The notes below the pieces were generated by a model that worked only from the letters and a program-made list of their open reading frames with translations, was not told where the DNA came from and did not search any database. A program made the position numbers and the translations under genes. Shown here in pieces: positions 22,290 through 60,251 of a DNA stretch of 60,251 nt. The stretch's first letter is position 1. Each line of letters opens with the position of its first letter. Source of the stretch: Candidatus Woesearchaeota archaeon (GTDB lineage: Archaea; Nanobdellota; Nanobdellia; Woesearchaeales; JAGLGH01); NCBI GenBank assembly GCA_030670545.1, contig DAOVBM010000004.1, positions 1 to 60,251 of the forward strand. The letters run 5' to 3'.

Positions 22290-22459
22290 ATAGATAACGA
22301 AAATTTGACAATTTATTGATAGCAAATCCTATCCCTACCATAAATGGTGGGGTATTACAGATTTGCATTATATATTATCAAATTTTTGGAATCCAAAATT
22401 TCGCACTGAAGTAAGGGGTATTAAACCCCAATAAAATTTCTTGCGAAATTTTCGATAAA
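22290..22459 (+). repeat. repeat family B, copy B2 (inside putative origin)
   Basis: Second copy of the ~170-bp element. Contains TTTCGCACTGAAGTAAGGGGT (22399-22419) and the inverted ACCCCAATAAAATTTCTTGCGAAA (22425-22448). Confidence 0.75.
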
Positions 22460-22472
22460 ATAAATTATTAAA

Positions 22473-22520
22473 ATATAATAATATAATAATATAATAATAT
22501 AATAATATAATAATATATAT
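22473..22520. repeat. tandem repeat (ATATAATA)x5 plus a partial unit
   Basis: Five perfect contiguous ATATAATA units at 22473-22512, followed by ATATATAT. This is a candidate DNA unwinding element. Confidence 0.8.
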
Positions 22521-22747
22521 ATTATATAATATATTTCAATATAGAAAATAATAAAAAATGACAAATAACAATTATCAATAATATTAAACTCTATACGAAA
22601 TAAGGGGGACAGAGAACAAAATAAACCATTTTTCATTACTATATAATCATTAAAAATAGAAACATTTATATACTTGTTGCGACTCACAAATGATAACACA
22701 TAAAAAAAGGGTGCGATTCAGCAATTAACGATTAAGAGGAATACAAA

Positions 22748-23539
22748 ATGATTATACAAGAAGAATTTTTGGGAAAAATAAAATACTTTGGATTAAATAG
22801 TTATGAAGCAAAACTCTGGACAGCACTTCTTTCAAGAGGAATATCAACCGCAGGAGAATTAAGTGATATTGCAAATGTACCAAGATCAAGAAGTTATGAT
22901 GTCCTTGAATCCCTTGAAAAAAAAGGATTTATTATTATGAAAATAGGAAAACCTATTAAATATATTGCAGTGCATCCAGAAGAGGTAATAGAAAGAGTAA
23001 AGAAAGGAATAAGAAAAAAAGCTGACGAAAAATCTAAAATACTAACAAACCTTAAAGAAAGTGAATTAATCAAAGAACTTAACACCCTTCATTCACAAGG
23101 AATAGAATTTATTGAATCATCTGACCTTTCAGGGTCTTTTAGAGGAAGGGACTCAATATACTGTCATATGGATAGCTTAATTAAAAAAGCAAATAAATCT
23201 GTAGACATCATGACAACATCAGAAGGAATAATAAGAAAAGCAAAAACTCTCAAAAATGCACTTAAGAAAGCGAATGAAAAAGGAGTAAAAATAAGAATAG
23301 CAGCACCGTTAACCAAAGAGAATAATGATGCTGTAAAATTACTATCTAAATTCGCTGAGATAAAAGACACAAAAGCCAATACAAGATTTTGTATAGTTGA
23401 CAATGAGGAGCTGGTTTTTATGATTCTTGATGATAAAGAAGTACATCCATCATATGACACTGGAGTATGGGTAAATACTAAATTTTTTTCAAATACCCTT
23501 AAAAACATGTTTGATAATGAATGGGAAAATACAATTTAG
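22748..23539 (+). CDS. TrmB-family transcriptional regulator (paralog 1)
   Basis: N-terminal TrmB wHTH (LNSYEAKLWTALLSRGISTAGELSDIANVPRSRSYDVLESLEKKGFI) and a C-terminal PLD-like TrmB effector domain. Close paralog of 54601-55419. Confidence 0.85.
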   Translation: MIIQEEFLGKIKYFGLNSYEAKLWTALLSRGISTAGELSDIANVPRSRSYDVLESLEKKGFIIMKIGKPIKYIAVHPEEVIERVKKGIRKKADEKSKILTNLKESELIKELNTLHSQGIEFIESSDLSGSFRGRDSIYCHMDSLIKKANKSVDIMTTSEGIIRKAKTLKNALKKANEKGVKIRIAAPLTKENNDAVKLLSKFAEIKDTKANTRFCIVDNEELVFMILDDKEVHPSYDTGVWVNTKFFSNTLKNMFDNEWENTI

Positions 23540-23736
23540 AAATAATTCTATTTTTTTCAAATTCTATTTTTTAATTATTTATAAAGTATGAAATACTTTA
23601 TTAATACCATAAATTTTCACAATCTTAATCATTTATGAAATTTTCTCGTTTTGTGGAAAATAAACGCAAGATTTAAATATATTAATTTTAATATAAATAA
23701 AATTATCATTTTATAAATAAGAAAAGAGGTGTTTTA

Positions 23737-23937
23737 ATGGGACTTGAAGATATAAGTATAGTTATTCTTTCTATAATTATAGGTACTTTGGCAGCTATAG
23801 TATACAGCTTAAGAGTATTAGTTCTTATGGAAAGAAGAGTTGCAAAAATAGAGAAACACATAGAAGTTCTTGCTCAGAGGATATTAAAAGAAGAACAGAA
23901 TATAGAAAAAAACATAAAGAAAAGAAAAAAGAAATAA
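23737..23937 (+). CDS. small membrane protein (1 TM + charged coiled tail)
   Basis: 66 aa. GAGGTG Shine-Dalgarno 6-7 nt upstream of the ATG, one TM helix and a Lys/Glu-rich tail. Confidence 0.45.
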   Translation: MGLEDISIVILSIIIGTLAAIVYSLRVLVLMERRVAKIEKHIEVLAQRILKEEQNIEKNIKKRKKK

Positions 23938-23995
23938 TATTTTAATTTTTATGTTTTTTTATTTATTATGTTTATTATTATAGGTGATTTATAGT

Positions 23996-24907
23996 ATGGA
24001 TTATTTTAATGCAACTCTTAGCAAAATAAGAAATTTAGAGATACAAGGAGCTGCAGATATAGCAAAGGAAGCATCAAAAGCATTCATATTTAAGATTTCT
24101 GAATCAAAATCAAAAGATAAGGACGAATTAATAAGAGAAATAAACACCATAAAGCAAAAAATATTCAATACAAGGCCAACAGAACCATTTATGAGAAATA
24201 TGATTAATCATATCATATCTTCTGCGCAGGATATGGATTTTAAATATATTATTCCTTCACTTCACATAAATCTTAATAAGACTCTTAGATGGACTACAAA
24301 AACAGAAAGGGAGTTAGCGAATATAGGAGCAAAGAAAATTAAAAAAGGGTATGTTGCTTATACTCATTGCCATTCTTCAACTGTTGTCAGCATATTCAAG
24401 AAAGCAAAGGATACAGGAATAGAATTTGAAGTCCACAATACCGAAACAAGACCCCTCTATCAGGGCAGGAAAACAGCAAAAGAACTCGTAGCATATGGGA
24501 TAAAAATAAGGCATTACGTGGATTCTGCAGCAAGATTGGCATTAAAAAAAGCAGATATAATGATGATAGGCGCTGACGCCATAACTTCAGAAGGACAAGT
24601 CATAAATAAGATCGGCTCAGAGCTAATTTCAGAGGCTGCAAACAGGCTTAATATACCAGTCTATGTATGTACCCATTCCTGGAAATTTAACTCTGAGACT
24701 ATTTTTGGGTTTGATGAAGTAATAGAGAAGAGGGTAGAAAAAGAGGTATGGCCTGGAAAGCCACGTAAGGTTATTATAGATAATTATGCCTTTGAGAAGA
24801 TTGATCCTTCCCTTATTACAGGAATAATCTCTGAAATGGGTATATACCGGCCCCAGAATTTTATAGAAGAAGTAAAAAGAAGATATAAGTGGATGTTTAC
24901 GATTTAA
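23996..24907 (+). CDS. eIF-2B alpha/beta/delta family protein (putative ribose-1,5-bisphosphate isomerase / aIF-2B)
   Basis: RPLYQGRKTAKELVAYGI...ADIMMIGADAITSEGQVINKIGS is typical of the family. The track start is a GTG, and the ATG at 23996 has a GGTGA SD upstream. Confidence 0.8.
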   Translation: MDYFNATLSKIRNLEIQGAADIAKEASKAFIFKISESKSKDKDELIREINTIKQKIFNTRPTEPFMRNMINHIISSAQDMDFKYIIPSLHINLNKTLRWTTKTERELANIGAKKIKKGYVAYTHCHSSTVVSIFKKAKDTGIEFEVHNTETRPLYQGRKTAKELVAYGIKIRHYVDSAARLALKKADIMMIGADAITSEGQVINKIGSELISEAANRLNIPVYVCTHSWKFNSETIFGFDEVIEKRVEKEVWPGKPRKVIIDNYAFEKIDPSLITGIISEMGIYRPQNFIEEVKRRYKWMFTI

Positions 24908-42341: not shown

Positions 42342-43559
42342 ATGCCACCTAAAAAAGCAGCAAAAAGAGCAGCACGCAAATCTTTAGCAAAGAAGCATAC
42401 AAGAAAATCCAGAAAACATTCTGTGCCAAAGCAAAAAAAACCATTAGTGAAGACAGCGAAAGCTTTATCCACACCAGAAGAAATAATAAGTGAAGTAAGA
42501 AACGAGAAGATATTTTTAGCTGGTCATAAGTCAAGAGCTGAAGATGAGAATATAATTCTTATAAAGAAAAGGGACATACTGCAAGAAAGGGTCCAGGAAC
42601 TAAAATCAGGTATGAACGAGGCAAATGAGCGGATAATTACTCTTGCAGAAGAAATTGCCAAGAGAAACAGTAATCTTAAGCTGCTTTCAGATGCATATAT
42701 TGAGGTAAAAGAGAATTATGATTCAATGAAGGCGAATATAAGCAAGTTTAAGTCAGACATAGCATCAAGAGATTCTACTATCCAAAGCCTGAAGTCAGTT
42801 ATTGAAAAATACAAAAAACAGATTATGAGAACCAACCCCCATATTGAAACCCTGTACAAAAGGTTGACACAATCCCAGATCAAGGAAAGGCAAATAGCTA
42901 TAATCAATAATAAGTTGAATAAGCAGTGCGACATCCTTATTGAAGACACTAAGAAAAAAGATATGGAATTAACGCAGAAAGACGAAGAAGCAAAAAATCT
43001 GGTTGAGAAAGAGCGCAGCAGGATTACGCTGGATGCAGAAAAACAGATTACAGATTATTTGCAGAAAGAAATGTTTCTAAAGAAAAAAATCGCGCATATA
43101 AATAAGCAGCTTATGGAAAAAGACAGTATAATCACTCAGAAGGACAAAAAGATATCAATGCTCAATGGAATATACAGGAAGATTAAGGATTTTATTGAAA
43201 CCGGAAACATAGTCACAGGAAAAGCAGCAACTGCAAAGAAGCGAATCTTCCCTTCTTTTGTACGGAAAACAGTCCCTGAGAAGCCTATTCAGTTGTTTCC
43301 TGAAGAGGAACAAGAAAAGGGCCAGCTCCAAGGGATAGAGGAAAAGGGATTTGAGACTGAACCAATTGTAATTGAGAAAACTGCTCCAGCTGAAGAAACA
43401 CTTCCCTATACTGCTGATGAAATAGTTCCTATAGTAATTGTTGCCTTGCAGCATGGAGATTCCCATGCAACTATAAAGAATTCTTTAATAAGCTCTGGTT
43501 ATAATCCTGTTGAAGTGAATAAGGCTGTAGAAAAAGTAAAAGAAAAATCTGCAGCATAA
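42342..43559 (+). CDS. Lys-rich N-terminus + long coiled-coil protein, unknown function
   Basis: 405 aa. MPPKKAAKRAARK... basic head, ~250 aa of heptad-like coiled coil and a small C-terminal globular segment. It starts 13 nt after rfcS. It is not an RFC large subunit, having no Walker motifs. Confidence 0.55.
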   Translation: MPPKKAAKRAARKSLAKKHTRKSRKHSVPKQKKPLVKTAKALSTPEEIISEVRNEKIFLAGHKSRAEDENIILIKKRDILQERVQELKSGMNEANERIITLAEEIAKRNSNLKLLSDAYIEVKENYDSMKANISKFKSDIASRDSTIQSLKSVIEKYKKQIMRTNPHIETLYKRLTQSQIKERQIAIINNKLNKQCDILIEDTKKKDMELTQKDEEAKNLVEKERSRITLDAEKQITDYLQKEMFLKKKIAHINKQLMEKDSIITQKDKKISMLNGIYRKIKDFIETGNIVTGKAATAKKRIFPSFVRKTVPEKPIQLFPEEEQEKGQLQGIEEKGFETEPIVIEKTAPAEETLPYTADEIVPIVIVALQHGDSHATIKNSLISSGYNPVEVNKAVEKVKEKSAA

Positions 43560-45586: not shown

Positions 45587-46558
45587 TTATATACCTATTT
45601 TCCTTATTGATATCCCTTTTGAGATTGTTTGCATATAGCCATAATCTGCAGTTATAGTAAGTGGAGTATAGTAGCTTGAGATTGTTTCATCTATTCCTTC
45701 TTCAAGAGTACATATGGTATAGTCTGAATCTTTTCTTAGTTTCAATAATTCTGGCTTACATGAAAGGGGCAAGTCAGATAATACTGCACTAACCTTTAAT
45801 ACATTGATATCATCAGTTGAAAGAGGTTGTGCAGAGCACGCAATGTCAGCCCTGCCATGAGCTATAATAGTTCCATCTCCAACATTCTCAAAATGGATTA
45901 TAAATTGAGGTCTAACAACTCCCCCTTCTTTTGAGACAATCATTCTTGATTCTATACGCTTTATAGCGACTGGCGCTCCCTGGTCACTAAGGCTTACATC
46001 TGCAGCATTGCATGCCTTTTCGCGCGGTTTCAGATTATATACATCAGTATCGACGCATACGTTTGAATGTCCCTTTGTGTGATAATCATAACATACTGTG
46101 ACATAGATTGTGGTATCGGCTTTTTCTCTCTGCGGGCCTATATCCATTATTTCAAGGTTAACAATATCCACATCTTCCATACCCTCGGGCAAAGCAAGGG
46201 ATTTCCCTTGAATATCTATAGTTATCCTGTCATCTATACCTTTTCCCTGCCAGCTTGAAAGTTTAATATACTCCTTTTCATATCCCAGAAGAAGGTAACC
46301 TCTTTTCACGTCTGATGTTCCTTTATTTTCCATAATGATTCCTGCCTGGATCAATGAGCCTTCAATGACATCTGGAGGCGGAGCGCCTTCAATGAATTCA
46401 ATTATCAGCCCGTCAGAGCCTTGTTCTATATCTTCAAGTGAAGGCCTTTCAGGCTTGTATACCCTATCGCATCCTGATGTAAGGATAATCAAAATACATA
46501 GCAGAAGGAACAGGCAAAATGCATTGCTTCTCTTTTTTCCTGCCTTATTTCCTTTCAT
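45587..46558 (-). CDS. secreted lipobox protein, paralog 3 of surface-module family
   Basis: Signal peptide ending ...ILTSGC. Motifs IMENKGTS, VTVCYDYHT..VCVDT, QGAPVAIKRIES, FENVGDG, TICTL and ITADYGYMQT..ISIRKIGI. The ATG at 46558 overlaps the upstream stop (TGATG), and the track start at 46561 is a TTG. Confidence 0.7.
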   Translation of the reverse strand: MKGNKAGKKRSNAFCLFLLLCILIILTSGCDRVYKPERPSLEDIEQGSDGLIIEFIEGAPPPDVIEGSLIQAGIIMENKGTSDVKRGYLLLGYEKEYIKLSSWQGKGIDDRITIDIQGKSLALPEGMEDVDIVNLEIMDIGPQREKADTTIYVTVCYDYHTKGHSNVCVDTDVYNLKPREKACNAADVSLSDQGAPVAIKRIESRMIVSKEGGVVRPQFIIHFENVGDGTIIAHGRADIACSAQPLSTDDINVLKVSAVLSDLPLSCKPELLKLRKDSDYTICTLEEGIDETISSYYTPLTITADYGYMQTISKGISIRKIGI

Positions 46559-49107
46559 CAACTTACTACCCCATTCTTAAGTTCTATATTGGGATTGAAT
46601 AATAATCCCTCCCAGGCTGCAGGCTCTTGCGCAGGTCTTTGTATCATAACTTTGTATGATCCAGAATGAAGGTTCCTGTAATAATTAAATGTTTCAATTT
46701 TCATTTGGTCTAATAACGTGTTTTTACTGTCGCTCAGCAGGTATACCCAGATTCCATCAATATTCTTTTTAAAGCCTTTTATAAAATAATACTGGTCTGC
46801 GTCAGTCCATTTTCCATCATTATTCTTATCTTCTCCAACAAGATCATTCTTCTTGAAAAGAGTTGCTATTGGCACAGCTTCTTCTTCTTCAATTGCTGCA
46901 TCTGCTTCTCCTTTGCACAGGCGGTTTTTCCATAGGGTGTAGTATTTTAGAGCATTATCTGTACTAAATGTATCAATTTTTGTTTCAGTTTTATATGAAT
47001 CCAATGCTAATTTTATATCCTTTTCTGAGTTAATTTTGGTTTTAAGGAATTTGGCAGCCATTTCTATCTCTTTTATAGGATTGTCAAGGAATGTTGCAGG
47101 ATATCTTATACCATATCCAGTCAGATAGTCTGGTATCTTGTTATCATTTTTGTCTATATTTCCTATTCCGCTTGCTTCACTCATAATCGCAGCAATAAGC
47201 GCTTCAGCTTTGAGGTAATCAAGCCCTTGCGGCTTATTCACTTTTACAATATTTCTGACTGTGCTCTGATAGTTCTTGTACCTCTCAATGTGATCATCTG
47301 GAGGCAGGTTATTTTTGTCAGGAGAATAGTCTTTGCATTCTGTTTCTTCTATTCCTATATCTTCCTGTATCTTCTCACAACCACCACCATATTCTGTCTT
47401 TTTTATATTGACTGTAAGGCTTCTCTGGAGTTCATATTCATAGTCAGCAATTAGCTTAAAGTTCTTGATTGATATAGGAGCATTTCCAAGGAACTTATCA
47501 TAATCACTCTTATCTATCCCTATTCTGCATATCAAACTCTTGTAAAGGCTGATTCCTGGCTGGCCTGCAGGTATTATCCTCTGATTTTTTCCTGTCTGGT
47601 TTAGGACATATATATTGCTTGCATCATCATCACACCATTCATTTTCTTCTCCGAAAACAGCTGCGCAGGTTTTAGCTTCAAAATTATAGCCCCCACAATA
47701 ACTCCCTTCTGCTTTTCCATCAAGTTCAAGGTGCATCTCTTTTGGCAGTATTATTGTAAGGTTCTTCACATCCTTGATATTACCTTCCCAGACATTCTCA
47801 AGGGTTATGCCAAGCCTGAATGATTCTATGTCTCTTTTTCTGTCTATGGCAATAGGCTGGCTTTTTTCAAGCTCTACTCCTATCTTTATCGGTCCGTTTG
47901 TCGAGAGAGCAATAGGGTTTGAGTCATATACTCCTATGTTTCTCAGGATGTCCTCTGGGGTGTTTATGTTAGGATCTTGCCTTATCATACTCTGCATCCT
48001 TTCCCTGTCAATAAAGTAATTCCTCAGGTATGATAGTGTCTGAAACCCGAATGCATGATTAAAATAGATTGTTTTAGATCCTGGAGAAAACCTGCACCTG
48101 TCAAACATGCAGTCTACAGTGATTTCATCATATTGCGATACCTTTTCTGTATCTGGCTTGATTGAATCCGGAAGCACAGACTCTGCATGGCAGAAGTTCT
48201 TTATTGTTATCTCCTCTTTTAATGTCCTAATTGTCAGCCTTGAGTAAACTATTAATGGCTCATCCTCATATACCTCAGGGTCAGTTGATTTGACTTCGGT
48301 TATGCTTACCCCTAATGGCTGCCGCACATTCTGATCGACCTGGGAAGTGTAATAGTCCCCAAATACCATGGCTTGCGTAATGTTTTTTTGCCTTTTATAG
48401 CCCGTGACTGTAGAGGTCCATAGACTTTCACCAAACTCTTTTGTATTTTTCCATGAAGTCGAAGCAAAATCTTTAAAATCAGTAATGTCTTTTCCGTTTA
48501 ACATCTGCTGTGTTCCACCAAACATAACAATGCTTCCAACTGAATGGAATGCATAGAACAATACTATGAACAAGATTAACCATGACCTTTTTCTTGAAGG
48601 TTTTGTGAAAAAAAGTGGCAATAGGAACCAGATTGGGAAAATTAGCTTATTAATACTAAATAATGAGAAAGCAAAAAAGTCAAGAAATAATGCGCCAAGG
48701 ATTATCATGTTTGCCTGGCTTTTTTCCATTATCTTGTACAGCCCAGCAAAAAGGAAAGAGAACGCAAATACTAAATGAATTGTAGCCCCTAAATATCCAA
48801 TACCCCCCATTGAGATAATTATTGAAAGAAACATAACCAATGCTGCAAAGGATAGCATATCTTTGGGATTTCTTTCTTCTTTGTTTATGAAAAGATAATA
48901 TAATGCTACCAAGAGTAGAGTCAAACCATTGATATAAATTCTCCAGTCAGTTAATGCAATACTCCTAAAATAACTAAAATCTATTCCTTTAAAACGTGTA
49001 AAGAAGTCAAGCGCAAAAACCGCTAATCCCAACAATATCCACTCAAAACCAGGCCCGCTATAACTGGGTGTATATCTGGTCTGAGAATCTGGGTTGTTAT
49101 CTGCCAT
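46558..49107 (-). CDS. polytopic membrane protein (~7 N-terminal TM) with large ectodomain containing the same surface module and an SLT-like segment
   Basis: 849 aa. Residues ~20-200 are hydrophobic helices. The ectodomain contains NGPIKIGVE, ITLENVWEGN, LICRIG and LIADYEYELQRSLTVNIKK, which parallel the paralog motifs. Downstream lies the EALIAAIMSEASG segment. Confidence 0.7.
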   Translation of the reverse strand: MADNNPDSQTRYTPSYSGPGFEWILLGLAVFALDFFTRFKGIDFSYFRSIALTDWRIYINGLTLLLVALYYLFINKEERNPKDMLSFAALVMFLSIIISMGGIGYLGATIHLVFAFSFLFAGLYKIMEKSQANMIILGALFLDFFAFSLFSINKLIFPIWFLLPLFFTKPSRKRSWLILFIVLFYAFHSVGSIVMFGGTQQMLNGKDITDFKDFASTSWKNTKEFGESLWTSTVTGYKRQKNITQAMVFGDYYTSQVDQNVRQPLGVSITEVKSTDPEVYEDEPLIVYSRLTIRTLKEEITIKNFCHAESVLPDSIKPDTEKVSQYDEITVDCMFDRCRFSPGSKTIYFNHAFGFQTLSYLRNYFIDRERMQSMIRQDPNINTPEDILRNIGVYDSNPIALSTNGPIKIGVELEKSQPIAIDRKRDIESFRLGITLENVWEGNIKDVKNLTIILPKEMHLELDGKAEGSYCGGYNFEAKTCAAVFGEENEWCDDDASNIYVLNQTGKNQRIIPAGQPGISLYKSLICRIGIDKSDYDKFLGNAPISIKNFKLIADYEYELQRSLTVNIKKTEYGGGCEKIQEDIGIEETECKDYSPDKNNLPPDDHIERYKNYQSTVRNIVKVNKPQGLDYLKAEALIAAIMSEASGIGNIDKNDNKIPDYLTGYGIRYPATFLDNPIKEIEMAAKFLKTKINSEKDIKLALDSYKTETKIDTFSTDNALKYYTLWKNRLCKGEADAAIEEEEAVPIATLFKKNDLVGEDKNNDGKWTDADQYYFIKGFKKNIDGIWVYLLSDSKNTLLDQMKIETFNYYRNLHSGSYKVMIQRPAQEPAAWEGLLFNPNIELKNGVVS

Positions 49108-53655: not shown

Positions 53656-54323
53656 TTTTCAGCAACTATCCTTACATCAACAATATTTATATCATTTCCA
53701 TCCACAATTACTGGATTGAGATCTATCTCTTTTATTTGTATTTCTTTCATGCTTAATCTGGATACTTTGACTATAATGTCTGCTATTTTCGTTAGATTTG
53801 CTGGTTTTGTCCCCCTTGCTCCAGTAAGAAGAGAGATTGCCCTTATCTTTTTTATCATTCCTATTGCCTGGCTTTGGTTTACGGGAGCTATCTGCATTGA
53901 GACATCTTTCATGACCTCAACAAATATTCCTCCAAGCCCAAAAAGCAGCACTGGGCCGAATTGAGGGTCCCTCTTCATCCCTATGATTATCTCTATGCCT
54001 GAAAACATCTTCTGCGCAAGCACCCCTCGTATATCTGCAGAAGGTATATTCTTTTTTATGGCTGTTAATATTCTCTCATATGCTTCAGCAGCCTCTTTCT
54101 CATCCCTGATGCTTGTCTCCACTCCTCCTGCATCACTCTTGTGGATAACATCTCCAGAAATAATCTTCATTGCCAGAGGATAGCCAATCTTATTTGAGTA
54201 TTTTTGAATCTCTGATTTTGATTTTATAATCGCACTATCTGGAAGCTGTATTGAATATTTTTTAAGTATATTTACAGATTCATTAAAGCTAAGCTGGAAC
54301 TTGCCTTTTTCTTTTGATTTCAT
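53652..54323 (-). CDS. acdB: ADP-forming acetyl-CoA synthetase, beta subunit (ATP-grasp)
   Basis: 223 aa. ATP-grasp_5-like pattern (..YPLAMKIISGDVIHKSDAGGV....EIDLNPV). The stop overlaps the acdA start. Confidence 0.85.
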   Translation of the reverse strand: MKSKEKGKFQLSFNESVNILKKYSIQLPDSAIIKSKSEIQKYSNKIGYPLAMKIISGDVIHKSDAGGVETSIRDEKEAAEAYERILTAIKKNIPSADIRGVLAQKMFSGIEIIIGMKRDPQFGPVLLFGLGGIFVEVMKDVSMQIAPVNQSQAIGMIKKIRAISLLTGARGTKPANLTKIADIIVKVSRLSMKEIQIKEIDLNPVIVDGNDINIVDVRIVAEK

Positions 54324-54558
54324 ATATCATGCTTAGTTAAGATTATATATAAACTTTCTTATTTTCTGCCAGTTTTATGTCAATCACCAAACTTTCCTCA
54401 GAAAACTTATATATGCAAATATTTATATACTAGTTAGATTTATCACAACATGAAGGGATTACTACGCAGTAAAAAATAGAGAGGATGATTGCGCAGTGAA
54501 CTACTATGTTGTGGGAAAAACCGTAACATATTAATAGTAGTAGTTTTAATTCACCCTA

Positions 54559-54580
54559 TTGACATAACAAATTTTGTCAA
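54559..54580. promoter_or_regulatory. inverted repeat TTGACA-N10-TGTCAA upstream of TrmB paralog 2 (possible operator)
   Basis: TTGACATAACAAATTTTGTCAA lies ~20 nt upstream of the ATG at 54601, just before the GGGGGGAG SD. Confidence 0.3.
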
Positions 54581-54600
54581 AAAAAAGGGGGGAGTATTAA

Positions 54601-55419
54601 ATGATAGTTAAAGAAGAATTTTTAAGCAAACTGAGGAGATATTTCTCATTAAATCTTTATGAAGTAAAGATATGGGCAGCGCTTCTTTCAAGAGGAGTGT
54701 CAACAGCAGGGGAATTAAGTGACATTGCAAATGTACCAAGGTCCAGAAGCTATGATGTTCTTGAATCTCTTGAGAAGAAGGGTTTTATTATCATGAAACT
54801 TGGCAAGCCTATCAAGTATATTGCTGTAAACCCTACTGAGGTGCTAGAGAGAGTAAAGAAGAATATGAGGGAAGATGCAGAAGAGAAAGTGGACAGGCTA
54901 GAGAAGCTGAAGAGCACAGAAGTCCTTACAGAGCTTACAACTCTTCATACACAGGGTGTAGAGCTTGTTGAACCTACAGACCTTTCAGGAAGCCTGAGGG
55001 GCAGGCACAACTTATATAACCATCTTGAACTTACAATAAGGAATGCTGAAGAGTCTGTTGTTATCATGACTACTTCCCAGGGTCTTATGAGAAAAGTGGA
55101 AGGCCTTAAGCAGACATTTGAAGAAATCAAGAAGAGGGGAGTAAGTATCAAGATTGCTGCGCCGATAACAAAAGAATCAATGGATGCGGCAAAAGACATC
55201 TCAACTGTTGCAGAAATAAGGGATACTGATGCAAAGGCAAGATTCTGCATAGTCGACGGAAAGGAACTGATATTTATGGTTCTTGACGATCAGGAAGTGC
55301 ACCCTACTTATGATATAGGCATCTGGGTGAATACGCCGTTCTTTGCAGGCGCATTGCAGTCATTGTTCGACCTTTCCTGGAAGGCAATGAAACCTTTCAC
55401 TGTTAAGATGAAAAAATAA
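54601..55419 (+). CDS. TrmB-family transcriptional regulator (paralog 2)
   Basis: The wHTH is almost identical to paralog 1 (AGELSDIANVPRSRSYDVLESLEKKGFIIMK.GKPIKYIAV) and the proteins are collinear over their whole length. Confidence 0.85.
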   Translation: MIVKEEFLSKLRRYFSLNLYEVKIWAALLSRGVSTAGELSDIANVPRSRSYDVLESLEKKGFIIMKLGKPIKYIAVNPTEVLERVKKNMREDAEEKVDRLEKLKSTEVLTELTTLHTQGVELVEPTDLSGSLRGRHNLYNHLELTIRNAEESVVIMTTSQGLMRKVEGLKQTFEEIKKRGVSIKIAAPITKESMDAAKDISTVAEIRDTDAKARFCIVDGKELIFMVLDDQEVHPTYDIGIWVNTPFFAGALQSLFDLSWKAMKPFTVKMKK

Positions 55420-55489
55420 TTTAATTCTTCTTTTTTATTTTTCTTTTTAATAAAATTAGATAAATATTGTATTTAATTGTGTTGACTTT

Positions 55490-56611
55490 TCATAGCGTTC
55501 TTATTAAGAGTATGATGCTCCCTCTGGCTAATAATGTTAACAATACACCAAAGAACATAAATGGAGCAAATGGGAGGCTTTGTTGTATTCGCAAATACTG
55601 AAAATTCGGATGCTTATCCCGCAGTATCCTAAGCTTTTTAATATCCTTCTCACTAAGGCCCTCAGTACAACAGCTAATTATACTTTTTTGATTCTTATTG
55701 GCAAGGTATTCAAAGAAGCTGAAAAAAAGCAGCTTTTTTTTCCTTAATCTATTGTCCTGGTTTTTGCCTGATTTATCTTTATCAGTTCCTGATTCATATA
55801 TGATTTCTGCAGGAATCATACCTTGTCTTAAATTTGATATTTTGATTTTCCTTGAAAAATGCTGGAAGCTTAAATCGAGGAATATAAGCCTGAAGATGAT
55901 AAATATTATGAATGTTACCAAGAGCATCTTAAGAAAATGCAGATTATAAACTTTGCGGCTTAATGCAAGAATTAATATAGAGCAAATTCCCATTATTTTC
56001 AAGAGATGCTTTTGACCTAATGTTGATTGAGAAAATAATGATATTGTAAATAATATTGGAATAATAATCAGATATGGTAATTGCATTCCCCATTTTTCAG
56101 AGATGAATGTCAAAAGCCAGATAAACACAAAGAATGAAATAAATTGGGGGGCTAGATCTCTTATCTTCAATACATTCATTATAGAATCTTTTTTTTGTTT
56201 CCAGTGTGTCATAAGAATCACATTAATGGCAAAAAATACAAATATCGGAATAAATGTGTTAATAAATAGGTTTAAGGAAGGGAAATAAGGGACAAAGCTT
56301 GACTGATTATAAATTAAAATAGGAATTAGCGCAGAATATGCTGTAAATAGCTTTCCATCGCCGGAACTCCATAGTTTCATATCCCAAAGGAAGAATCCTG
56401 CCAGTAAGGCAATAATAAAATTAGAAGTCATGTGGATTATGTAATCTTTATTTGTGCCTACTTCCAATACAAAAAGAAGAAAAATATGCATAAAAAGAGA
56501 ATAGATTATTGCTCCAAATATCGCAGTATTCTTTATTTTGCCATATCTTATATCAGTGTAAGAGGTGTAGATACCTAATGCAATTATCGCTGGCAAAAAA
56601 TATGCAATCAT
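55490..56611 (-). CDS. A24-family (prepilin/preflagellin peptidase-like) membrane aspartyl protease with long cytoplasmic insert
   Basis: First catalytic Asp in YTDIRYGKIKN, the second in SSGDGKLF (GxGD type), and C-terminal LPFAPFMFFG. A ~100-aa Lys-rich insert precedes the last helices. Confidence 0.7.
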   Translation of the reverse strand: MIAYFLPAIIALGIYTSYTDIRYGKIKNTAIFGAIIYSLFMHIFLLFVLEVGTNKDYIIHMTSNFIIALLAGFFLWDMKLWSSGDGKLFTAYSALIPILIYNQSSFVPYFPSLNLFINTFIPIFVFFAINVILMTHWKQKKDSIMNVLKIRDLAPQFISFFVFIWLLTFISEKWGMQLPYLIIIPILFTISLFSQSTLGQKHLLKIMGICSILILALSRKVYNLHFLKMLLVTFIIFIIFRLIFLDLSFQHFSRKIKISNLRQGMIPAEIIYESGTDKDKSGKNQDNRLRKKKLLFFSFFEYLANKNQKSIISCCTEGLSEKDIKKLRILRDKHPNFQYLRIQQSLPFAPFMFFGVLLTLLARGSIILLIRTL

Positions 56612-56702
56612 CTTTTATAATTATTTGATTGGTCTTTTTATATCTTTTTAGTTTTTTGCGCATTTTGGAAAATGTATCAACAAAACATCACATGCAGATG
56701 CT

Positions 56703-58130
56703 TTATAAGCTAGCTGTCTTATCTTCTCTTCCTGGCTGGGATATAACAGTCAGGTTTTCCATCCAGTTATCAAATAGTTTCTTATGCGGTCCGACTGAAT
56801 TCAATTTTGTGAATATGTAATCAAACATTCCTTTATATATAAGGCACCTTTGGTCTCTGGGCAGGATTGATACAAGGCTGCCTGAATCAGCATAATTGCA
56901 TACAGGGCATACCCCACAGAAAGGTTTATATGCGCAAGCATCGCAAAGAAGCGTATCATTTACAGAAGAAGCTATCATACTGCAACTTTGGTTAGATGTA
57001 AGAATTTCTTTGTAAGTGTTATCAAAAACATTCCCTAATCTGAACATCTCGTACTGCCTGCCTTCATCACAAGTATGGATATTGCCATTTTGGACATAAG
57101 CAAGCTGACCAATAACTGCGCCACAAGGGCTTTGAAAATCAGTATAATTGCACCACACCCCTTTAAGCTTTGCAAGTATATATTCAACCATTCTATCTCT
57201 TATTGGATGATTCTTATTGATTTTAACAAGATAATCCATTGATTTTGTCCAGAAATCCAAGTACTCTTTCGGAGAATAATTTATTTTATCTGCAGTCTTT
57301 GAAGCAAATCCTAGATTGCTAAGAAATCTCAATTTTATCCAATTGAGATTGTTATTGACATATTCATCAATTATTTCTTTATAATATGGAAGTGAATCTC
57401 TTGTAGTTACCATCAGCGCATTTATGTTATAATTATAATCTTCATTAATCTCCTTTATCCAATATACTACATCTTTATATGAATTCCCCCCCATATAAAT
57501 TCTGTTCTTGTTATGAAGCTTTTCAGGTCCGTCAAGCGAGGTGCATAATCCTACCTTATTTTTGATTAAGTATTTGAGAATGGTATCATCCATCTTTGAG
57601 AGATTGGTAACAAGATCAAAGCCCAATAATTTCTTATGCTTCTTATTTGTCTCTTTTGCATATTCTATTATGTATTCGATAATATCATAATTCAAAAGGG
57701 GTTCTCCACCCTGGAACTCTATCGTTATTGTATCTGATGGTGATTGGAAGATGAAGTCTACAGTTTTTTTTGCGGTTTCCATATCCATATCATAACCCTT
57801 TTTATGCTGAGCGACAACATTAGAATGGCAGTATACGCATCTATGATTACACCTTAGGGTTGGCACCACTATATGCAATGAGGTACCTTTAAAAAGGTAG
57901 TTAAACTTTGTTTTTGTCAAATCTGTTATTTCCTGAAGATTAGCATTATCAATGAGAAATCCTTTTTTCCGCAGCAAATTTTTCAATTCCAGGTCATTTT
58001 CCAGTTTTCCAAACCTAAACATATCAAATTTTGTTTTATCCAGAATACACCAATTTCCAGCATCATTAGTGATAAGGTGACTGTCACCAATCTTTCGTTC
58101 CCTATAATGATTATATATAGATTGACTCAT
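56703..58130 (-). CDS. radical SAM / SPASM-domain peptide maturase (HxsB/HxsC-like)
   Basis: 475 aa. CNHRCVYCH (Cx3Cx2C) near residue 95, a GGEPLL motif and a C-terminal Cys-rich SPASM region (CDEG..., CDACAYKPFCGVCPVCN, RCLIY). Confidence 0.85.
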   Translation of the reverse strand: MSQSIYNHYRERKIGDSHLITNDAGNWCILDKTKFDMFRFGKLENDLELKNLLRKKGFLIDNANLQEITDLTKTKFNYLFKGTSLHIVVPTLRCNHRCVYCHSNVVAQHKKGYDMDMETAKKTVDFIFQSPSDTITIEFQGGEPLLNYDIIEYIIEYAKETNKKHKKLLGFDLVTNLSKMDDTILKYLIKNKVGLCTSLDGPEKLHNKNRIYMGGNSYKDVVYWIKEINEDYNYNINALMVTTRDSLPYYKEIIDEYVNNNLNWIKLRFLSNLGFASKTADKINYSPKEYLDFWTKSMDYLVKINKNHPIRDRMVEYILAKLKGVWCNYTDFQSPCGAVIGQLAYVQNGNIHTCDEGRQYEMFRLGNVFDNTYKEILTSNQSCSMIASSVNDTLLCDACAYKPFCGVCPVCNYADSGSLVSILPRDQRCLIYKGMFDYIFTKLNSVGPHKKLFDNWMENLTVISQPGREDKTASL

Positions 58131-58132
58131 TT

Positions 58133-58390
58133 TTATAAATTGCCTTGATTATTGATCAAACCCAGCATGTAATTGCAGAACTCATATCCTATCAATTCAA
58201 TATCCTTTTGCTTTTTGGGTATGATTATTATATGGTCATTGTCTTTTTTAAATTCACATACACTTTCAAAATCTTTCATAGCTCTGTTTATTATGCTATC
58301 ATTATAAAGATGATTATTAAGTGAAATATTTATCTGGTTTTTATCTTTATCAATTTTGATCATCTTTCTGAGGAATATTTTTCTTCCCAT
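58133..58390 (-). CDS. small HxsD-like protein (second copy)
   Basis: Collinear with the 135-aa neighbour: ..INISLNNHLYNDSIINRAMKDF...IIIIPKK....ELIGYEFCNYMLG. The alternative ATG at 58363 overlaps the upstream stop as ATGA. The stop lies 2 nt before the radical SAM ATG. Confidence 0.55.
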   Translation of the reverse strand: MGRKIFLRKMIKIDKDKNQINISLNNHLYNDSIINRAMKDFESVCEFKKDNDHIIIIPKKQKDIELIGYEFCNYMLGLINNQGNL

Positions 58391-58767
58391 GGTATTGCAA
58401 TACCTTCTGGATCATCCAGGTCATCATCCATTTCGTCTTCTATATCAAAACCATTTGTCAGCAATGCCCTTTGTATTATTGCTTGCCTGATACCTGAATT
58501 TTTCTCAGACTGGCTTTTATAGACTGCATAATTTAAAAGTTCGTCATTGAGTTTATTTCCCAATTCTTCAAGATTTTCACTGCTTTTAGGTCTTATGTGT
58601 ACTTGCACTTCAGTTTTTGGGTCACCGTCAAGAAATACATATGCTTGGTCAAGGAGAGTATAAGCTGCAGCATATATTATATCGAGGCCGTATATCTTTG
58701 GGTTAATGGATACCAAGGCACAATCTGGATGTAATTCAATATTGCCAATTTTGTTTTTGTCTTTCAT
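58360..58767 (-). CDS. HxsD-like protein (first copy)
   Basis: ..IELHPDCALVSINPKIYGLDIIYAAAYTLLD....VHIRPKS...EELGNKLNDELLNYAVYKSQ. The ELLNY.VYK segment recalls the LLNDYxLRE signature of HxsD. GGGGTGA SD 5 nt upstream of the ATG at 58767. The track start is a GTG. Confidence 0.55.
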   Translation of the reverse strand: MKDKNKIGNIELHPDCALVSINPKIYGLDIIYAAAYTLLDQAYVFLDGDPKTEVQVHIRPKSSENLEELGNKLNDELLNYAVYKSQSEKNSGIRQAIIQRALLTNGFDIEDEMDDDLDDPEGIAIPWEEKYSSER

Positions 58768-58918
58768 AAAAATCACCCCATAATTTATTTTTGTAAGATA
58801 GAATTTAAAGCTTTCGAAAAATGAATGGCAGGAGTTGTTTATTTAAGGTAATCCTTTTTGATGTTTCTCGTCTAAACTACAATACAAATCGAAAAATTTA
58901 TATACTCTCTTAATTAGT

Positions 58919-59215
58919 ATGGATATAGTCTATAAAGCTAAACTTGTAAGAATGGAAAATGTCCCTAAACTAAAAAAAAAGATTTCAGCCTATCTTATGG
59001 GTGAGGATGGAAAAATTTCAAAACAGTCCTTGATTGCAATAGGCGCTTTTATTGGCAGCGCAGCGTTATCAAGCTTGTTATTGTCTGATTCTGTAAATGC
59101 TCACAGTTCACATACAAGCCATGGTACGAATAGCCTTTCCATTAGTTATAGCGCAGGAACAGCGACTGGTACGCACAACCATCATTCAAGCCATGGAAGC
59201 CATTCTAGTTATTGA
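58919..59215 (+). CDS. His-Xaa-Ser-rich precursor-like peptide (HxsA-like)
   Basis: 98 aa. A leader with a hydrophobic h-region ends ..LLLSDSVNA. The core is HSSHTSHGTNSLSISYSAGTATGTHNHHSSHGSHSSY. Transcribed divergently from the maturase operon, with TTTATATA upstream. Confidence 0.6.
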   Translation: MDIVYKAKLVRMENVPKLKKKISAYLMGEDGKISKQSLIAIGAFIGSAALSSLLLSDSVNAHSSHTSHGTNSLSISYSAGTATGTHNHHSSHGSHSSY

Positions 59216-59226
59216 TACTTAATAAG

Positions 59227-59787
59227 ATGAGATTAATAAAAGATTTTTTTGAGGAGAATGAAGAAGAGCTTGAAGATAAAATAAAAGAAGCCAAAGAAAT
59301 CATAGAAAAATCCCATAAAAAACTTGACATGTTGAAGAAAAGAAAGATAGAAAAAAAATCAAGCAAGAGATTAGGTTCTAAAAATATTTATTCAGGTAAA
59401 ATTTGGAGATACATTTTCCTTGTTCTTGCAATAAGTGCAGCCATCTGGACATATTCACAATTTAGTGAAGAAGATAGTTATGAATATTCATGCAAAGAAA
59501 AAAATCCCTGTCCAGATTGCAATGTAAGCATCAAGTGTGTGGAGCTTAGGGAAATTGACTATTTGCATCAAAAGTTTTATTTTACAATAGAAAATCTGCG
59601 CAATTATCCAGCAATGTGTTTTGTCACACTCCATCTATTTGATGAAAATAAGACTGAATTATTGAAAAAAAAATATGATGCAGGAGCATTAGAGTCTAAA
59701 GAAGCAAAAACATTAGTTATTCCTATTGAGTTTCCAGAAGGAGATACTGACTTCTCTCTAATACCAGAATGTGATTGGACATCGTAA
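59227..59787 (+). CDS. single-pass membrane protein with Cys-containing extracellular domain
   Basis: Acidic/Lys-rich coiled N-terminus, TM helix IWRYIFLVLAISAAIWTY and a C-terminal ~110-aa domain with CKEKNPCPDCNVSIKC. The track start at 59212 is a TTG overlapping the previous stop, so the ATG at 59227 is preferred. Confidence 0.5.
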   Translation: MRLIKDFFEENEEELEDKIKEAKEIIEKSHKKLDMLKKRKIEKKSSKRLGSKNIYSGKIWRYIFLVLAISAAIWTYSQFSEEDSYEYSCKEKNPCPDCNVSIKCVELREIDYLHQKFYFTIENLRNYPAMCFVTLHLFDENKTELLKKKYDAGALESKEAKTLVIPIEFPEGDTDFSLIPECDWTS

Positions 59788-59790
59788 TCA

Positions 59791-59928
59791 CTATTTAGTA
59801 TTTATTGAAGATAGTTTTTCCAACAGTTTTATAAACTCTTTTCTTGTTCTATATACTTCTATTGATCCGATGAGAATTGCTAAAGCTATCGGAATCTGTG
59901 TCCAAAAGATTGCACTTGTTGTATCCAT
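59791..59928 (-). CDS. unannotated 45-aa single-TM protein (below the ORF-track cutoff)
   Basis: Translated by hand as MDTTSAIFWTQIPIALAILIGSIEVYRTRKEFIKLLEKLSSINTK. A GGAGG SD lies 7 nt upstream of the ATG. It is antisense to the implausible 59771-59974 plus-strand ORF. Confidence 0.35.
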   Translation of the reverse strand: MDTTSAIFWTQIPIALAILIGSIEVYRTRKEFIKLLEKLSSINTK

Positions 59929-60251
59929 TATTGATCCTCCAATGATTTATTTATTTTTGTTATTGTCCTTCTAATCGTGATTAATTCAAATATAAAGTAT
60001 AAAGATATTACCAGATAGGGGAAATGTGTTAATATTAAGATTTTTGCTAGGGTCATTGCTCACACCAATAATCCCTTTTTTTCATGGATTTAAAAAGATT
60101 ACGGTAAATGGGCTGCGTAGAAATGCTCCGAAACATATATAACCCAGTAAGCCCAAGATAGGGCTTAGTGGGGGTGAACATTCGAGGTGTTCACCAAATG
60201 AAAAAGAAAAAGACGTTTTTAATAAAGTTTGCGGAAAAGATCCTCTCTGCA

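What the first reader, a model, noticed from the sequence alone, without database searches (positions are those of the whole stretch)
56703..59215. Variant His-Xaa-Ser (Hxs-like) radical SAM/SPASM peptide-modification system
A divergent gene pair is present. On the plus strand, a 98-aa peptide has a C-terminal core that is almost entirely His-Xaa-Ser/Ser-His repeats (HSS-HTS-HGT...HNH-HSS-HGS-HSSY). On the minus strand, a tightly coupled operon encodes two small paralogous proteins with an (E)(L/F).NY motif and then a 475-aa Cx3Cx2C radical SAM enzyme with a C-terminal SPASM Cys cluster. From memory, this matches the TIGRFAMs-defined His-Xaa-Ser system: HxsA repeat protein, the HxsB/HxsC radical SAM pair, and HxsD with its LLNDYxLRE signature. 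To my knowledge the chemistry and biological role of that system are unknown. This locus differs in having one maturase rather than two, a duplicated HxsD-like gene, and a very short precursor.
Basis: partly seen in the sequence, partly recalled or inferred. Interest (0 to 1): 0.75.

Follow-up and report, generated by a model that had tools for sequence, protein, structure and literature searches.

The report
Archaeal His-Xaa-Ser peptide system with peptidase
This archaeal locus is a real five-gene relative of the bacterial His-Xaa-Ser (HXS) peptide-maturation system, recently shown to block phage DNA entry, but it uses one radical-SAM enzyme, a short membrane-type precursor and its own membrane peptidase.

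Summary
The 475-aa enzyme passes NCBI's curated HxsB model (428.7 bits, cutoff 370). The 85-aa protein passes the HxsD-like model. The 135-aa protein and the His/Ser peptide are best matched by HxsD and HxsA3, below their cutoffs.

Three corrections apply. First, the canonical HXS system is no longer of unknown role: a 2026 paper shows it is an antiphage system. Second, the locus is not an oddity. HxsD, HxsD-like, HxsB and a short precursor form the standard cassette of a large clade in DPANN archaea, CPR bacteria and other phyla (at least 593 species-level loci). NCBI already has partial models for it. The A24 aspartyl peptidase at 55490-56611 lies within 3 kb of HxsB in 30 of 38 archaeal loci and 2 of 44 bacterial loci. 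Starting from the peptidase, 20 of 24 well-flanked loci carry HxsD.

Likely mechanism: HxsB binds a conserved leader, modifies the His/Ser core, and the peptidase removes the leader at the membrane. The biological role is inferred only. I rate it a new variant of a known kind, of moderate interest.

The parts
58952..59215 (+). Precursor peptide, HxsA3/HxsA4-like. 87 aa from Met12; the longest ORF starts at 58919 and gives 98 aa. Layout: leader VPKLKKKISAYLMGEDGKISK, hydrophobic segment LIAIGAFIGSAALSSLLL, then core NAHSSHTSHGTNSLSISYSAGTATGTHNHHSSHGSHSSY.
   Evidence: NCBIfam HxsA3 51.4 bits (cutoff 65, E 6.8e-14) and HxsA4 24.7 bits. Family members sit next to HxsB in 59 of 84 loci with the same leader, hydrophobic segment and C-terminal aromatic residue. 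It has 6 HxS units, reached by 26 of 20000 shuffles.
58768..58951 (.). Divergent intergenic control region between the precursor and the hxsD operon. A TATA-like TTTATATA lies at 58897-58906.
   Evidence: Read directly from the sequence. The promoter role is inferred. No Rfam family matches 54000-60251.
58360..58767 (-). HxsD, 135 aa. Compact alpha/beta core (residues 10-105) plus a disordered C-terminal tail carrying the conserved motif DDPEGIAIPWEEKY.
   Evidence: TIGR03976 HxsD 42.3 bits (cutoff 50). Precomputed Pfam PF27806 HxsD. Invariant D119, P120, G122, I123 and W127 among 51 relatives. AF2 model pLDDT 84.5. Only weak PDB fold matches and no PqqD-type RRE among them.
58133..58390 (-). 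HxsD-like protein (HxsD_rel), 85 aa, or 76 aa from the ATG at 58363 that overlaps the hxsD stop.
   Evidence: NF038315 HxsD_rel 54.5 bits, above the cutoff of 41. Two HxsD-family genes are present in 30 of 38 archaeal and 26 of 44 bacterial loci. ATGA overlap seen.
56703..58130 (-). HxsB radical SAM/SPASM maturase, 475 aa, with an N-terminal RRE-like domain (residues ~10-75).
   Evidence: TIGR03978 428.7 bits, above the cutoff of 370. Pfam Radical_SAM 62 bits; SPASM 19.2 bits, just below its 21.5 cutoff. AF2 model pLDDT 87.7. Best fold match is CteB 5WGG, E 3.6e-23 over 467 columns. 36% identical to canonical Aeromonas HxsB.
55490..56611 (-). Cassette-linked A24-family aspartyl peptidase (prepilin-peptidase-like polytopic membrane protein), 373 aa. 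Proposed leader peptidase of the system.
   Evidence: Pfam Arc_PepC 35.9 bits (passes); Peptidase_A24 25.5 bits against a 26.5 cutoff. EppA model only 49 bits against 450. Catalytic D20 and D85 (WSSGDGKLF) are invariant in 22 cassette-linked homologues. Within 3 kb of HxsB in 30 of 38 archaeal loci. Reverse test: 56 of 80 loci, and 20 of 24 well-flanked loci, have HxsD nearby.

Best explanation
The locus is a complete archaeal-type member of the His-Xaa-Ser (Hxs) peptide-maturation systems. It has five genes: an 87-aa precursor, HxsD, an HxsD-like paralogue, one radical SAM/SPASM maturase (HxsB), and a dedicated A24 aspartyl peptidase.

Proposed mechanism, with the basis for each step:
1. The conserved leader (L/F)PKIKKKIxxFLxxEEGKISK is bound in the cytoplasm by the N-terminal RRE-like domain of HxsB, with HxsD and HxsD-like as accessory partners. 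This is inferred from the structural model and from leader conservation.
2. HxsB uses its SAM cluster and two auxiliary clusters to install a radical-mediated covalent modification in the His/Ser core (THNHHSSHGSHSSY). This is inferred by homology. In the canonical system HxsB, HxsC and HxsD are all required for maturation of HxsA, which includes a +8 Da modification mapped to an SHRSS motif.
3. The hydrophobic segment inserts into the membrane with the Lys-rich leader inside. This is inferred.
4. The A24 peptidase, whose active site faces the cytoplasmic side of the membrane in known family members, removes the leader near the nearly invariant E-(E/D)-G-(K/R)-I-S-K motif. The gene linkage is shown; the cleavage and its site are inferred.
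5. The product is a modified His/Ser-rich peptide displayed on, or released from, the outer face of the membrane.

Biological role: the best guess, at about 0.3-0.4, is an envelope-level barrier against viruses, by analogy with bacterial HXS. Metal binding by the uncharged His-rich tail is a serious alternative.

The confidence of 0.7 refers to the identity of the system and the outline of maturation, including the peptidase as a component. It does not refer to the biological role.
For: - Family assignment: HxsB is above its curated cutoff, HxsD_rel is above its cutoff, and HxsD and HxsA3 are the best hits for their proteins.
- Conserved cassette order across 84 HxsB-seeded loci from many phyla.
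- Peptidase linkage in both directions: 30 of 38 archaeal loci against 2 of 44 bacterial. From the peptidase, 56 of 80 loci have an HxsD-family gene within 2 kb; among loci with at least 3.5 kb of flank on both sides, 20 of 24 have HxsD and 21 of 24 have HxsD or an rSAM gene.
- Both catalytic Asp residues are invariant in the linked peptidase clade.
- The precursor leader is nearly invariant while the cores vary.
- The HxsB model has a beta3-alpha3 N-terminal domain and aligns full-length to the RRE-containing maturases CteB, TigE and SuiB.
- The operon is translationally coupled.
- In canonical HXS the effector is N-terminally processed by an unidentified protease and exported (PMC13128918).
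Against: - No experiment exists for any member of this clade.
- The precursor (51.4 bits, cutoff 65) and HxsD (42.3 bits, cutoff 50) fall below their curated cutoffs.
- HxsC is absent, yet the published chemistry is modelled on an HxsC-HxsD complex. HxsB alone may install a different modification.
- The leader does not look like a canonical class III (prepilin) signal: only 5 of 48 precursors match, and positions -1 and -2 before the Gly are acidic rather than basic. The cleavage site is therefore a guess.
- Bacterial relatives keep the same leader without an adjacent peptidase.
- An AxA-like motif after the hydrophobic segment in 43 of 48 precursors would allow ordinary signal-peptidase cleavage instead. 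This pattern is loose.
- The core has no Lys or Arg (pI 7.3, against 11.6 for the canonical repeats), so the electrostatic DNA-binding model transfers poorly.
- The neighbourhood is housekeeping and not a defence island. PADLOC gives nothing specific.
Confidence: 0.7

Rival explanations
1. The same maturation cassette is present, but its product is a secreted or surface metal-binding peptide (a metallophore-like or metal-buffering RiPP), or another non-defence natural product. It is not an antiviral effector.
For: The core is His/Ser/Gly-rich with no Lys or Arg and a near-neutral pI. It ends in a conserved TH-x-HH-x-SH...HSSY motif typical of metal ligands. The locus lies among housekeeping genes and not in a defence island. 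There is no specific PADLOC hit. An AxA-like motif follows the hydrophobic segment in 43 of 48 precursors, which is compatible with secretion.
Against: The only experimentally characterised homologous system is antiphage (PMC13128918). No transporter, metal-uptake or regulator genes are conserved in the cassette. PADLOC-DB 2023 predates the HXS report, so its silence is uninformative.
Confidence: 0.3
2. The A24 peptidase is an ordinary housekeeping prepilin/pre-archaellin peptidase that merely lies next to the Hxs genes. The Hxs system here has only four genes.
For: Databases call relatives 'prepilin peptidase', 'CpaA' or 'hypothetical'. The precursor leader is not a canonical class III signal. 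Most bacterial Hxs loci of the same clade lack the peptidase. In the window a 91-nt gap with a TATA-like element separates it from hxsB.
Against: Adjacency is conserved in both directions across phylum-level diversity, including Woesearchaeota, Nanoarchaeota, Aenigmatarchaeota, Iainarchaeota and Micrarchaeia. It also lies at the end of extended Hxs operons in some Omnitrophota and Elusimicrobia (L038, L051, L052). The clade scores only 49 bits to EppA against a cutoff of 450. L011 carries a second, more distant A24 homologue 1 kb upstream in the same locus.
Confidence: 0.12
3. The rSAM enzyme belongs to another family (anaerobic sulfatase maturase, sactipeptide or ranthipeptide maturase), and the His/Ser ORF is a chance low-complexity reading frame.
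For: The nearest solved structures are anSME and CteB. The Pfam SPASM hit is just below its threshold.
Against: HxsB scores 428.7 bits against 146.5 for PapB and 109 for anSME. The precursor has a conserved 20-residue leader in dozens of loci from different phyla and significant HxsA3 and HxsA4 hits.
Confidence: 0.02

Closest known systems
Canonical HXS antiphage system (HxsD-HxsB-HxsC-HxsA) of Pseudomonadota; TIGR03976-TIGR03979; Li et al., Nat Commun 2026 (PMC13128918)
   Same: It has an HxsB-family rSAM/SPASM maturase (36% identity to Aeromonas HxsB; the window protein passes the curated model). It has an HxsD-family small protein with the (L)LN(D)Y motif. Its substrate carries tandem His-Xaa-Ser units, is N-terminally processed and acts outside the cytoplasm.
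   Different: The window has no HxsC. It has a second HxsD-like gene, and its HxsD carries a C-terminal DDPEGIAIPWE tail that the 96-aa canonical HxsD lacks. The precursor is 87 aa with a conserved cytoplasmic-type leader and a hydrophobic segment. Canonical HxsA is a 192-aa protein with a Sec signal peptide and a peptidoglycan-binding domain. The window's repeats are uncharged, whereas the canonical repeats are Arg-rich. The window has a dedicated A24 peptidase. The host is an archaeon with no peptidoglycan or periplasm.
NCBIfam variant models HxsA3 (NF038309), HxsA4 (NF038313), HxsD_rel (NF038315) and HxsC4 (NF038332)
   Same: HxsD_rel is met above its cutoff. The precursor shares the leader and overall layout modelled by HxsA3 and HxsA4. 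Bacterial relatives in CPR, Elusimicrobia and Proteobacteria pass HxsA4 with 77-112 bits.
   Different: The window's precursor and 6 of the 7 archaeal relatives tested fall below both precursor cutoffs. No HxsC4-like enzyme is present in the window, although related ~300-aa rSAMs occur within 3 kb in 13 of 38 archaeal and 26 of 44 bacterial loci. No NCBIfam model covers the linked peptidase.
RRE-dependent rSAM/SPASM RiPP maturases (CteB, SuiB, TigE)
   Same: The predicted architecture is RRE, rSAM barrel and SPASM domain. It aligns full-length to CteB (E 3.6e-23). The precursor has a leader-core organisation.
   Different: Sequence identity is only 15-20%. The core contains no Cys, so the thioether chemistry of sactipeptides cannot apply to this precursor. 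Two extra HxsD-family proteins are of unknown role.
Archaeal prepilin peptidases (EppA, FlaK, PibD; MEROPS A24)
   Same: It is a polytopic membrane protein with both catalytic Asp motifs and the archaeal Arc_PepC C-terminal domain. The EppA model aligns end to end (residues 2-361).
   Different: The score is very low (49 bits against a 450 cutoff). The presumed substrate lacks a canonical class III signal peptide (5 of 48 match). The gene is linked to an rSAM cassette and not to pilin or archaellin genes.

Membership tests
His-Xaa-Ser system, canonical (TIGRFAM / HXS defence) | HxsB rSAM/SPASM maturase (TIGR03978, cutoff 370 bits) | tested here: met
   428.7 bits over residues 10-457. The next best family is PapB at 146.5 bits.
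His-Xaa-Ser system, canonical (TIGRFAM / HXS defence) | A second rSAM maturase, HxsC (TIGR03977), adjacent to HxsB | tested here: not met
   There is no other CxxxCxxC rSAM ORF and no other rSAM-profile hit on the whole 60,251-bp contig. The rest of the genome was not available.
His-Xaa-Ser system, canonical (TIGRFAM / HXS defence) | HxsD small protein (TIGR03976, cutoff 50 bits; LLNDYxLRE motif) | tested here: inconclusive
   42.3 bits, E 7.2e-11, and the only hit. Precomputed Pfam PF27806 HxsD hit. The ELLNY motif is present.
His-Xaa-Ser system, canonical (TIGRFAM / HXS defence) | HxsA (TIGR03979): signal peptide, basic HxS repeats and a peptidoglycan-binding domain | tested here: not met
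   No TIGR03979 hit for the window peptide. It has no PG-binding domain and no Lys or Arg in the repeats.
His-Xaa-Ser system, canonical (TIGRFAM / HXS defence) | Confers antiviral protection by blocking genome entry | not testable with these tools
   This needs expression and challenge experiments.
NCBIfam HxsA3/HxsA4-type variant Hxs systems | HxsD-like protein (NF038315, cutoff 41 bits) | tested here: met
   54.5 bits.
NCBIfam HxsA3/HxsA4-type variant Hxs systems | Precursor above the HxsA3 (65 bits) or HxsA4 (55 bits) cutoff | tested here: not met
   51.4 and 24.7 bits. The leader and layout are nevertheless shared. 6 of the 7 archaeal relatives tested also fall below both cutoffs.
rSAM/SPASM RiPP maturases with RRE | CxxxCxxC SAM cluster, a seven-Cys SPASM region and an N-terminal RRE fold | tested here: met
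   C94/C98/C101 plus seven conserved C-terminal Cys. The model shows a beta3-alpha3 N-terminal domain and a full-length match to CteB. The RRE rests on a predicted structure. Pfam SPASM scores 19.2 bits against a 21.5 cutoff.
A24 prepilin peptidases | Two catalytic Asp residues in conserved membrane motifs | tested here: met
   D20 and D85 (GDxKLF) are invariant in 22 homologues. Arc_PepC passes; Peptidase_A24 scores 25.5 bits against a 26.5 cutoff.
A24 prepilin peptidases | Substrate with a canonical class III signal peptide ((K/R)-G/A followed directly by the hydrophobic stretch) | tested here: not met
   Only 5 of 48 archaeal-type precursors match a FlaFind-like pattern, which I wrote from memory. 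The motif is E-(E/D)-G-(K/R)-I-S-K, and the hydrophobic run starts about 7 residues later.

The most novel reading that the evidence does not exclude
DPANN archaea (and some CPR, Omnitrophota and Elusimicrobia bacteria) carry a distinct five-gene Hxs branch. In it a dedicated A24 'prepilin-type' peptidase acts as the leader protease of an rSAM-modified peptide. The result is a membrane-anchored or pilin-like His/Ser-rich surface peptide that acts at the envelope, as an antiviral entry barrier or in host attachment. This would be the first link between class III-type signal processing and RiPP-like radical SAM maturation. It would also point to the kind of protease missing from the published bacterial HXS model.
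Probability: 0.25. Interest if true: 0.75.

Novelty: new variant of a known kind. Interest (0 to 1): 0.5.

Why it matters
The HXS system was shown only in 2026 to be an antiphage defence. That study describes it as 99.7% confined to Pseudomonadota and 99.8% four-gene, and it does not mention archaea or a protease. This locus represents a much broader branch that the published survey does not describe. It occurs in ultrasmall archaea and bacteria, manages with one maturase, and in archaea brings its own membrane peptidase.

If the peptidase is the leader protease, it gives a concrete and testable handle on the unexplained N-terminal processing step. It would also add a new substrate class for A24 peptidases. 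If the system is antiviral, it would be a rare example of an envelope-level defence in DPANN archaea. The short Cys-free precursor and single enzyme also make this variant a simpler model for solving the unknown Hxs chemistry.

Tried and rejected
- The first genome-contig scan, with the single HxsB protein, found no relatives. Repeating it with an alignment worked.
- HxsD as a PqqD-type RRE: the confident AF2 model has only weak PDB matches (E about 1e-2, TM 0.4-0.55), to RNA-polymerase Rpb11/L-type subunits, YbjN and T3SS-chaperone folds. No RRE appears among them. Rejected as a canonical RRE.
- PADLOC gave only a generic viperin rSAM-core hit (41 bits) and nothing for the other genes. The database dates from 2023, before HXS was reported, so this is uninformative.
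- A canonical class III signal peptide in the precursor: rejected, 5 of 48 match.
- Direct pairwise homology of the two small proteins is not significant (E = 0.12). They are related only at profile level.
- Rfam finds no RNA family in 54000-60251. The window has no tRNAs.
- The 191-aa ORF downstream of the precursor (59212-59787) is not conserved in any related locus, so it is not part of the system.
- A literature search for A24 peptidase plus radical SAM plus DPANN found nothing relevant.
- The organism could not be named more precisely than 'archaeon, probably DPANN'.
Full report
**1. Observation**

ORF listing confirms the gene set. On the minus strand there is a 475-aa protein (56703-58130), an 85-aa protein (58133-58390) and a 138-aa ORF (58360-58776). 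On the plus strand, divergently placed, there is a 98-aa ORF (58919-59215) whose C-terminal 39 residues are NAHSSHTSHGTNSLSISYSAGTATGTHNHHSSHGSHSSY.

The large protein has CNHRCVYC (C94/C98/C101). Seven further Cys are invariant or nearly invariant among 26 relatives. The six HxS units of the peptide are reached by only 26 of 20000 composition-preserving shuffles.

Gene junctions show translational coupling. An ATGA overlap lies between hxsD and an internal start of the next gene, and TAA-aa-ATG lies between that gene and hxsB.

The likely true starts are ATG 58767 for HxsD (135 aa) and Met12 at 58952 for the precursor (87 aa). The conserved family leader begins at Met12, and a TATA-like TTTATATA at 58897-58906 would place the transcription start between the two ATGs (inference).

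**2. Family assignment**

Against NCBIfam:
- The 475-aa protein scores 428.7 bits to TIGR03978 HxsB (cutoff 370). The runners-up are PapB at 146.5 bits and anaerobic sulfatase maturase at 109 bits.
- The 85-aa protein scores 54.5 bits to NF038315 'HxsD-like protein' (cutoff 41).
- The 138-aa ORF has TIGR03976 HxsD as its only hit, at 42.3 bits (cutoff 50).
- The peptide hits NF038309 HxsA3 at 51.4 bits (cutoff 65, E 6.8e-14) and HxsA4 at 24.7 bits.

Pfam gives Radical_SAM, Fer4_12 and a sub-threshold SPASM hit. Precomputed Pfam lists the recent PF27806 HxsD domain for the 135-aa protein.

The two small proteins are related only at profile level: 57-71 bits in cross-HMM searches, against BLASTP E = 0.12.

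**3. What is now known about the canonical system**

Li et al., Nat Commun 2026 (PMC13128918), show that the four-gene HxsD-B-C-A system of E. coli and Klebsiella is a broad antiphage defence that blocks phage DNA entry.
- HxsA has a signal peptide, five basic HxS repeats and a peptidoglycan-binding domain.
- HxsB, HxsC and HxsD are all needed for a non-canonical N-terminal cleavage of HxsA. A +8 Da modification was mapped to an SHRSS motif, although it could not be assayed in the deletion mutants.
- HxsC binds HxsD.
- The protease is not identified.
- The paper reports 99.7% of systems in Pseudomonadota and 99.8% with four genes. It never mentions archaea or a peptidase.

An annotated canonical locus (Aeromonas pAsa4, L183) has hxsD (96 aa), hxsB (484 aa), hxsC (401 aa) and hxsA (192 aa). 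The window HxsB is 36% identical to its HxsB. Its HxsA repeats (HRSHRSHSSHRSHSSHRSH) have pI 11.6. The window core has pI 7.3 and no Lys or Arg.

**4. Relatives and anatomy of the clade**

The closest HxsB relatives (47-62% identity) come from DPANN archaea, and NCBI and JGI already name them HxsB.

A scan of species-representative genomes found at least 593 loci. The best 80 are from Woesearchaeota, Nanoarchaeota, Aenigmatarchaeota, Iainarchaeota, Micrarchaeia, Nanohaloarchaea, CPR/Patescibacteria, Elusimicrobia, Omnitrophota, Myxococcota and others.

Profile searches of all ORFs in 84 loci show a conserved cassette: [A24 peptidase]-HxsD-HxsD-like-HxsB-precursor.
- Two HxsD-family genes occur in 30 of 38 archaeal and 26 of 44 bacterial loci. 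The 'duplicated HxsD' is therefore the norm.
- Extra ~300-aa rSAM genes in some loci have HxsC4 and HxsC as best hits, far below cutoff (150-212 bits against 500; 95-135 bits against 268).
- Such HxsC-like genes lie within 3 kb in 13 of 38 archaeal and 26 of 44 bacterial loci.
- The window has none on the whole 60-kb contig.

**5. The fifth gene**

The 373-aa protein directly downstream of hxsB (55490-56611) is an A24-family peptidase. Pfam Arc_PepC scores 35.9 bits and Peptidase_A24 25.5 bits. The EppA model aligns end to end but scores only 49 bits against a cutoff of 450.

Its homologues lie within 3 kb of HxsB in 30 of 38 archaeal loci (12 of 14 with full flanks). The figure for bacterial loci is 2 of 44.

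I ran the reverse test by seeding from the peptidase in metagenome contigs.
- 56 of 80 loci have an HxsD-family gene within 2 kb.
- Among loci with at least 3.5 kb of flank on both sides, 20 of 24 have HxsD, 16 of 24 have a full HxsB, and 21 of 24 have HxsD or an rSAM gene.

Both catalytic aspartates (D20, and D85 in W(S/T)AGD(A/G)KLF) are invariant in 22 linked homologues. Public databases call these proteins 'hypothetical', 'prepilin peptidase' or 'CpaA', and never an Hxs component. No NCBIfam model covers them. A literature search found nothing linking A24 peptidases with rSAM systems.

**6. The precursor family**

Across phyla the precursors share four features:
- the leader (L/F)PKIKKKIxxFLxxEEGKISK
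- an uncharged run, median about 15 residues, starting about 7 residues after the Gly
- a variable linker and HxS units
- a C-terminal aromatic residue

Archaeal members add a semi-conserved core, N-x-L-x-(L/I)-x-Y...(T/S)A(T/I)G(T/S)H-x-HH-x-SH...HSSY. They have fewer HxS units (median 3, against 12 in bacteria).

Bacterial precursors pass the HxsA4 cutoff (77-112 bits). 6 of the 7 archaeal ones tested fall below both the HxsA3 and HxsA4 cutoffs.

The leader is not a canonical class III signal: 5 of 48 match, and positions -1 and -2 before the Gly are acidic. An AxA-like motif follows the hydrophobic segment in 43 of 48. That pattern is loose.

**7. Structures**

The HxsB model (pLDDT 87.7, pTM 0.88) has an N-terminal beta3-alpha3 domain (residues 10-75). 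It aligns over 467 columns to CteB (5WGG, E 3.6e-23), and also to TigE and SuiB. All three are RRE-containing RiPP maturases. anSME, which lacks an RRE, aligns over only about 395 columns.

The HxsD model (pLDDT 84.5) has a compact alpha/beta core and a disordered tail. The tail carries the invariant motif DDPEGIAIPWE, which canonical 96-aa HxsD lacks. The model has no convincing PDB match and no RRE-like match. Leader recognition is therefore most plausibly by HxsB itself. HxsD and HxsD-like would be accessory partners, and the tail may be a docking motif (inference).

**8. Context**

The contig is core archaeal chromosome: MCM, PolD DP1 and DP2, Orc1/Cdc6, PheRS alpha and beta, Trm5/TYW2, a TrmB-family regulator and ADP-forming acetyl-CoA synthetase subunits. 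It is not a mobile element or a defence island. PADLOC gives nothing specific.

**9. Mechanism and verdict**

- Shown here: family membership of HxsB and HxsD-like, conserved five-gene synteny in archaea, an intact peptidase active site, and conserved leader-core precursor architecture.
- Inferred: leader binding by the HxsB RRE, radical modification of the His/Ser core, membrane insertion, leader removal by the A24 peptidase, and an extracytoplasmic His/Ser-rich product.
- Biological role: an envelope-level antiviral barrier by analogy with HXS, at about 0.3-0.4. Metal binding is a serious rival, because the repeats are uncharged.

The finding is real and correctly interpreted. It is a new variant of a known kind. 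Database curators partly anticipated it through the HxsD_rel, HxsA3, HxsA4 and HxsC4 models. I found no description of it in the searchable literature, and the peptidase linkage appears to be new.

Noticed in passing
window 20799-24000: An AT-rich intergenic stretch (22011-22747) lies directly beside the Orc1/Cdc6 gene (20799-22010); the 2-kb window at 22001-24000 has 24% GC. PolD DP1/DP2 and MCM are close by. Short inverted repeats such as TTGCGAAATTTTCG occur at 22295-22311 / 22441-22457. This may be the replication origin.
   Followed up: partly
L127, L156, L158 (metagenome loci seeded by the peptidase): In these loci the A24 peptidase is flanked by arrays of five to eight ~300-aa rSAM paralogues, with no HxsB or HxsD. 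The paralogues are probably HxsC-like, judging by their size and rSAM-profile scores; I did not test them against the HxsC models. L010, L018 and L022 show a related layout: rSAM314-HxsB-peptidase-rSAM304 without HxsD.
   Followed up: no
L164-L168, L170 (IMG/VR contigs of 21-76 kb): Contigs classified as viral carry a distant variant: HxsD, a second HxsD-family gene (not in L168), a peptidase-like gene, a 297-372 aa rSAM and HxsB (about 35% identity to the window), plus a longer His/Ser-rich ORF. The host, and whether the contigs are truly viral, are unknown.
   Followed up: no
L040, L047, L058, L064, L077, L057, L060, L070, L080 (bacterial precursors): Bacterial HxsA4-type precursors keep a Cys immediately before the first repeat, (A/H)-C-S-H-(A/G)-S-H-G. 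The window's core has no Cys at all. This could be a lipobox-like anchor or an extra modification site.
   Followed up: no
P0076, P0077: These are HxsB homologues of 771-795 aa fused to a PF01636 (APH-type phosphotransferase) domain.
   Followed up: no
L009:7520-8344: Two tandem precursor genes with identical leaders and different cores follow a single HxsB.
   Followed up: no
window 58360-58455 (HxsD residues ~105-135): The HxsD tail motif LDDPEGIAIPWEEKY is invariant at D119, P120, G122, I123 and W127 across 51 relatives. It is predicted disordered and is absent from the 96-aa canonical HxsD. It is probably a docking motif.
   Followed up: partly
window 46558-49107 (-) and 42342-43559 (+): These large ORFs (849 aa and 405 aa) have no Pfam hit at E <= 1e-5.
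   Followed up: no
window 54601-55419 (+): A TrmB-family regulator gene converges on the peptidase gene. I did not examine whether it is conserved with the cassette elsewhere.
   Followed up: no
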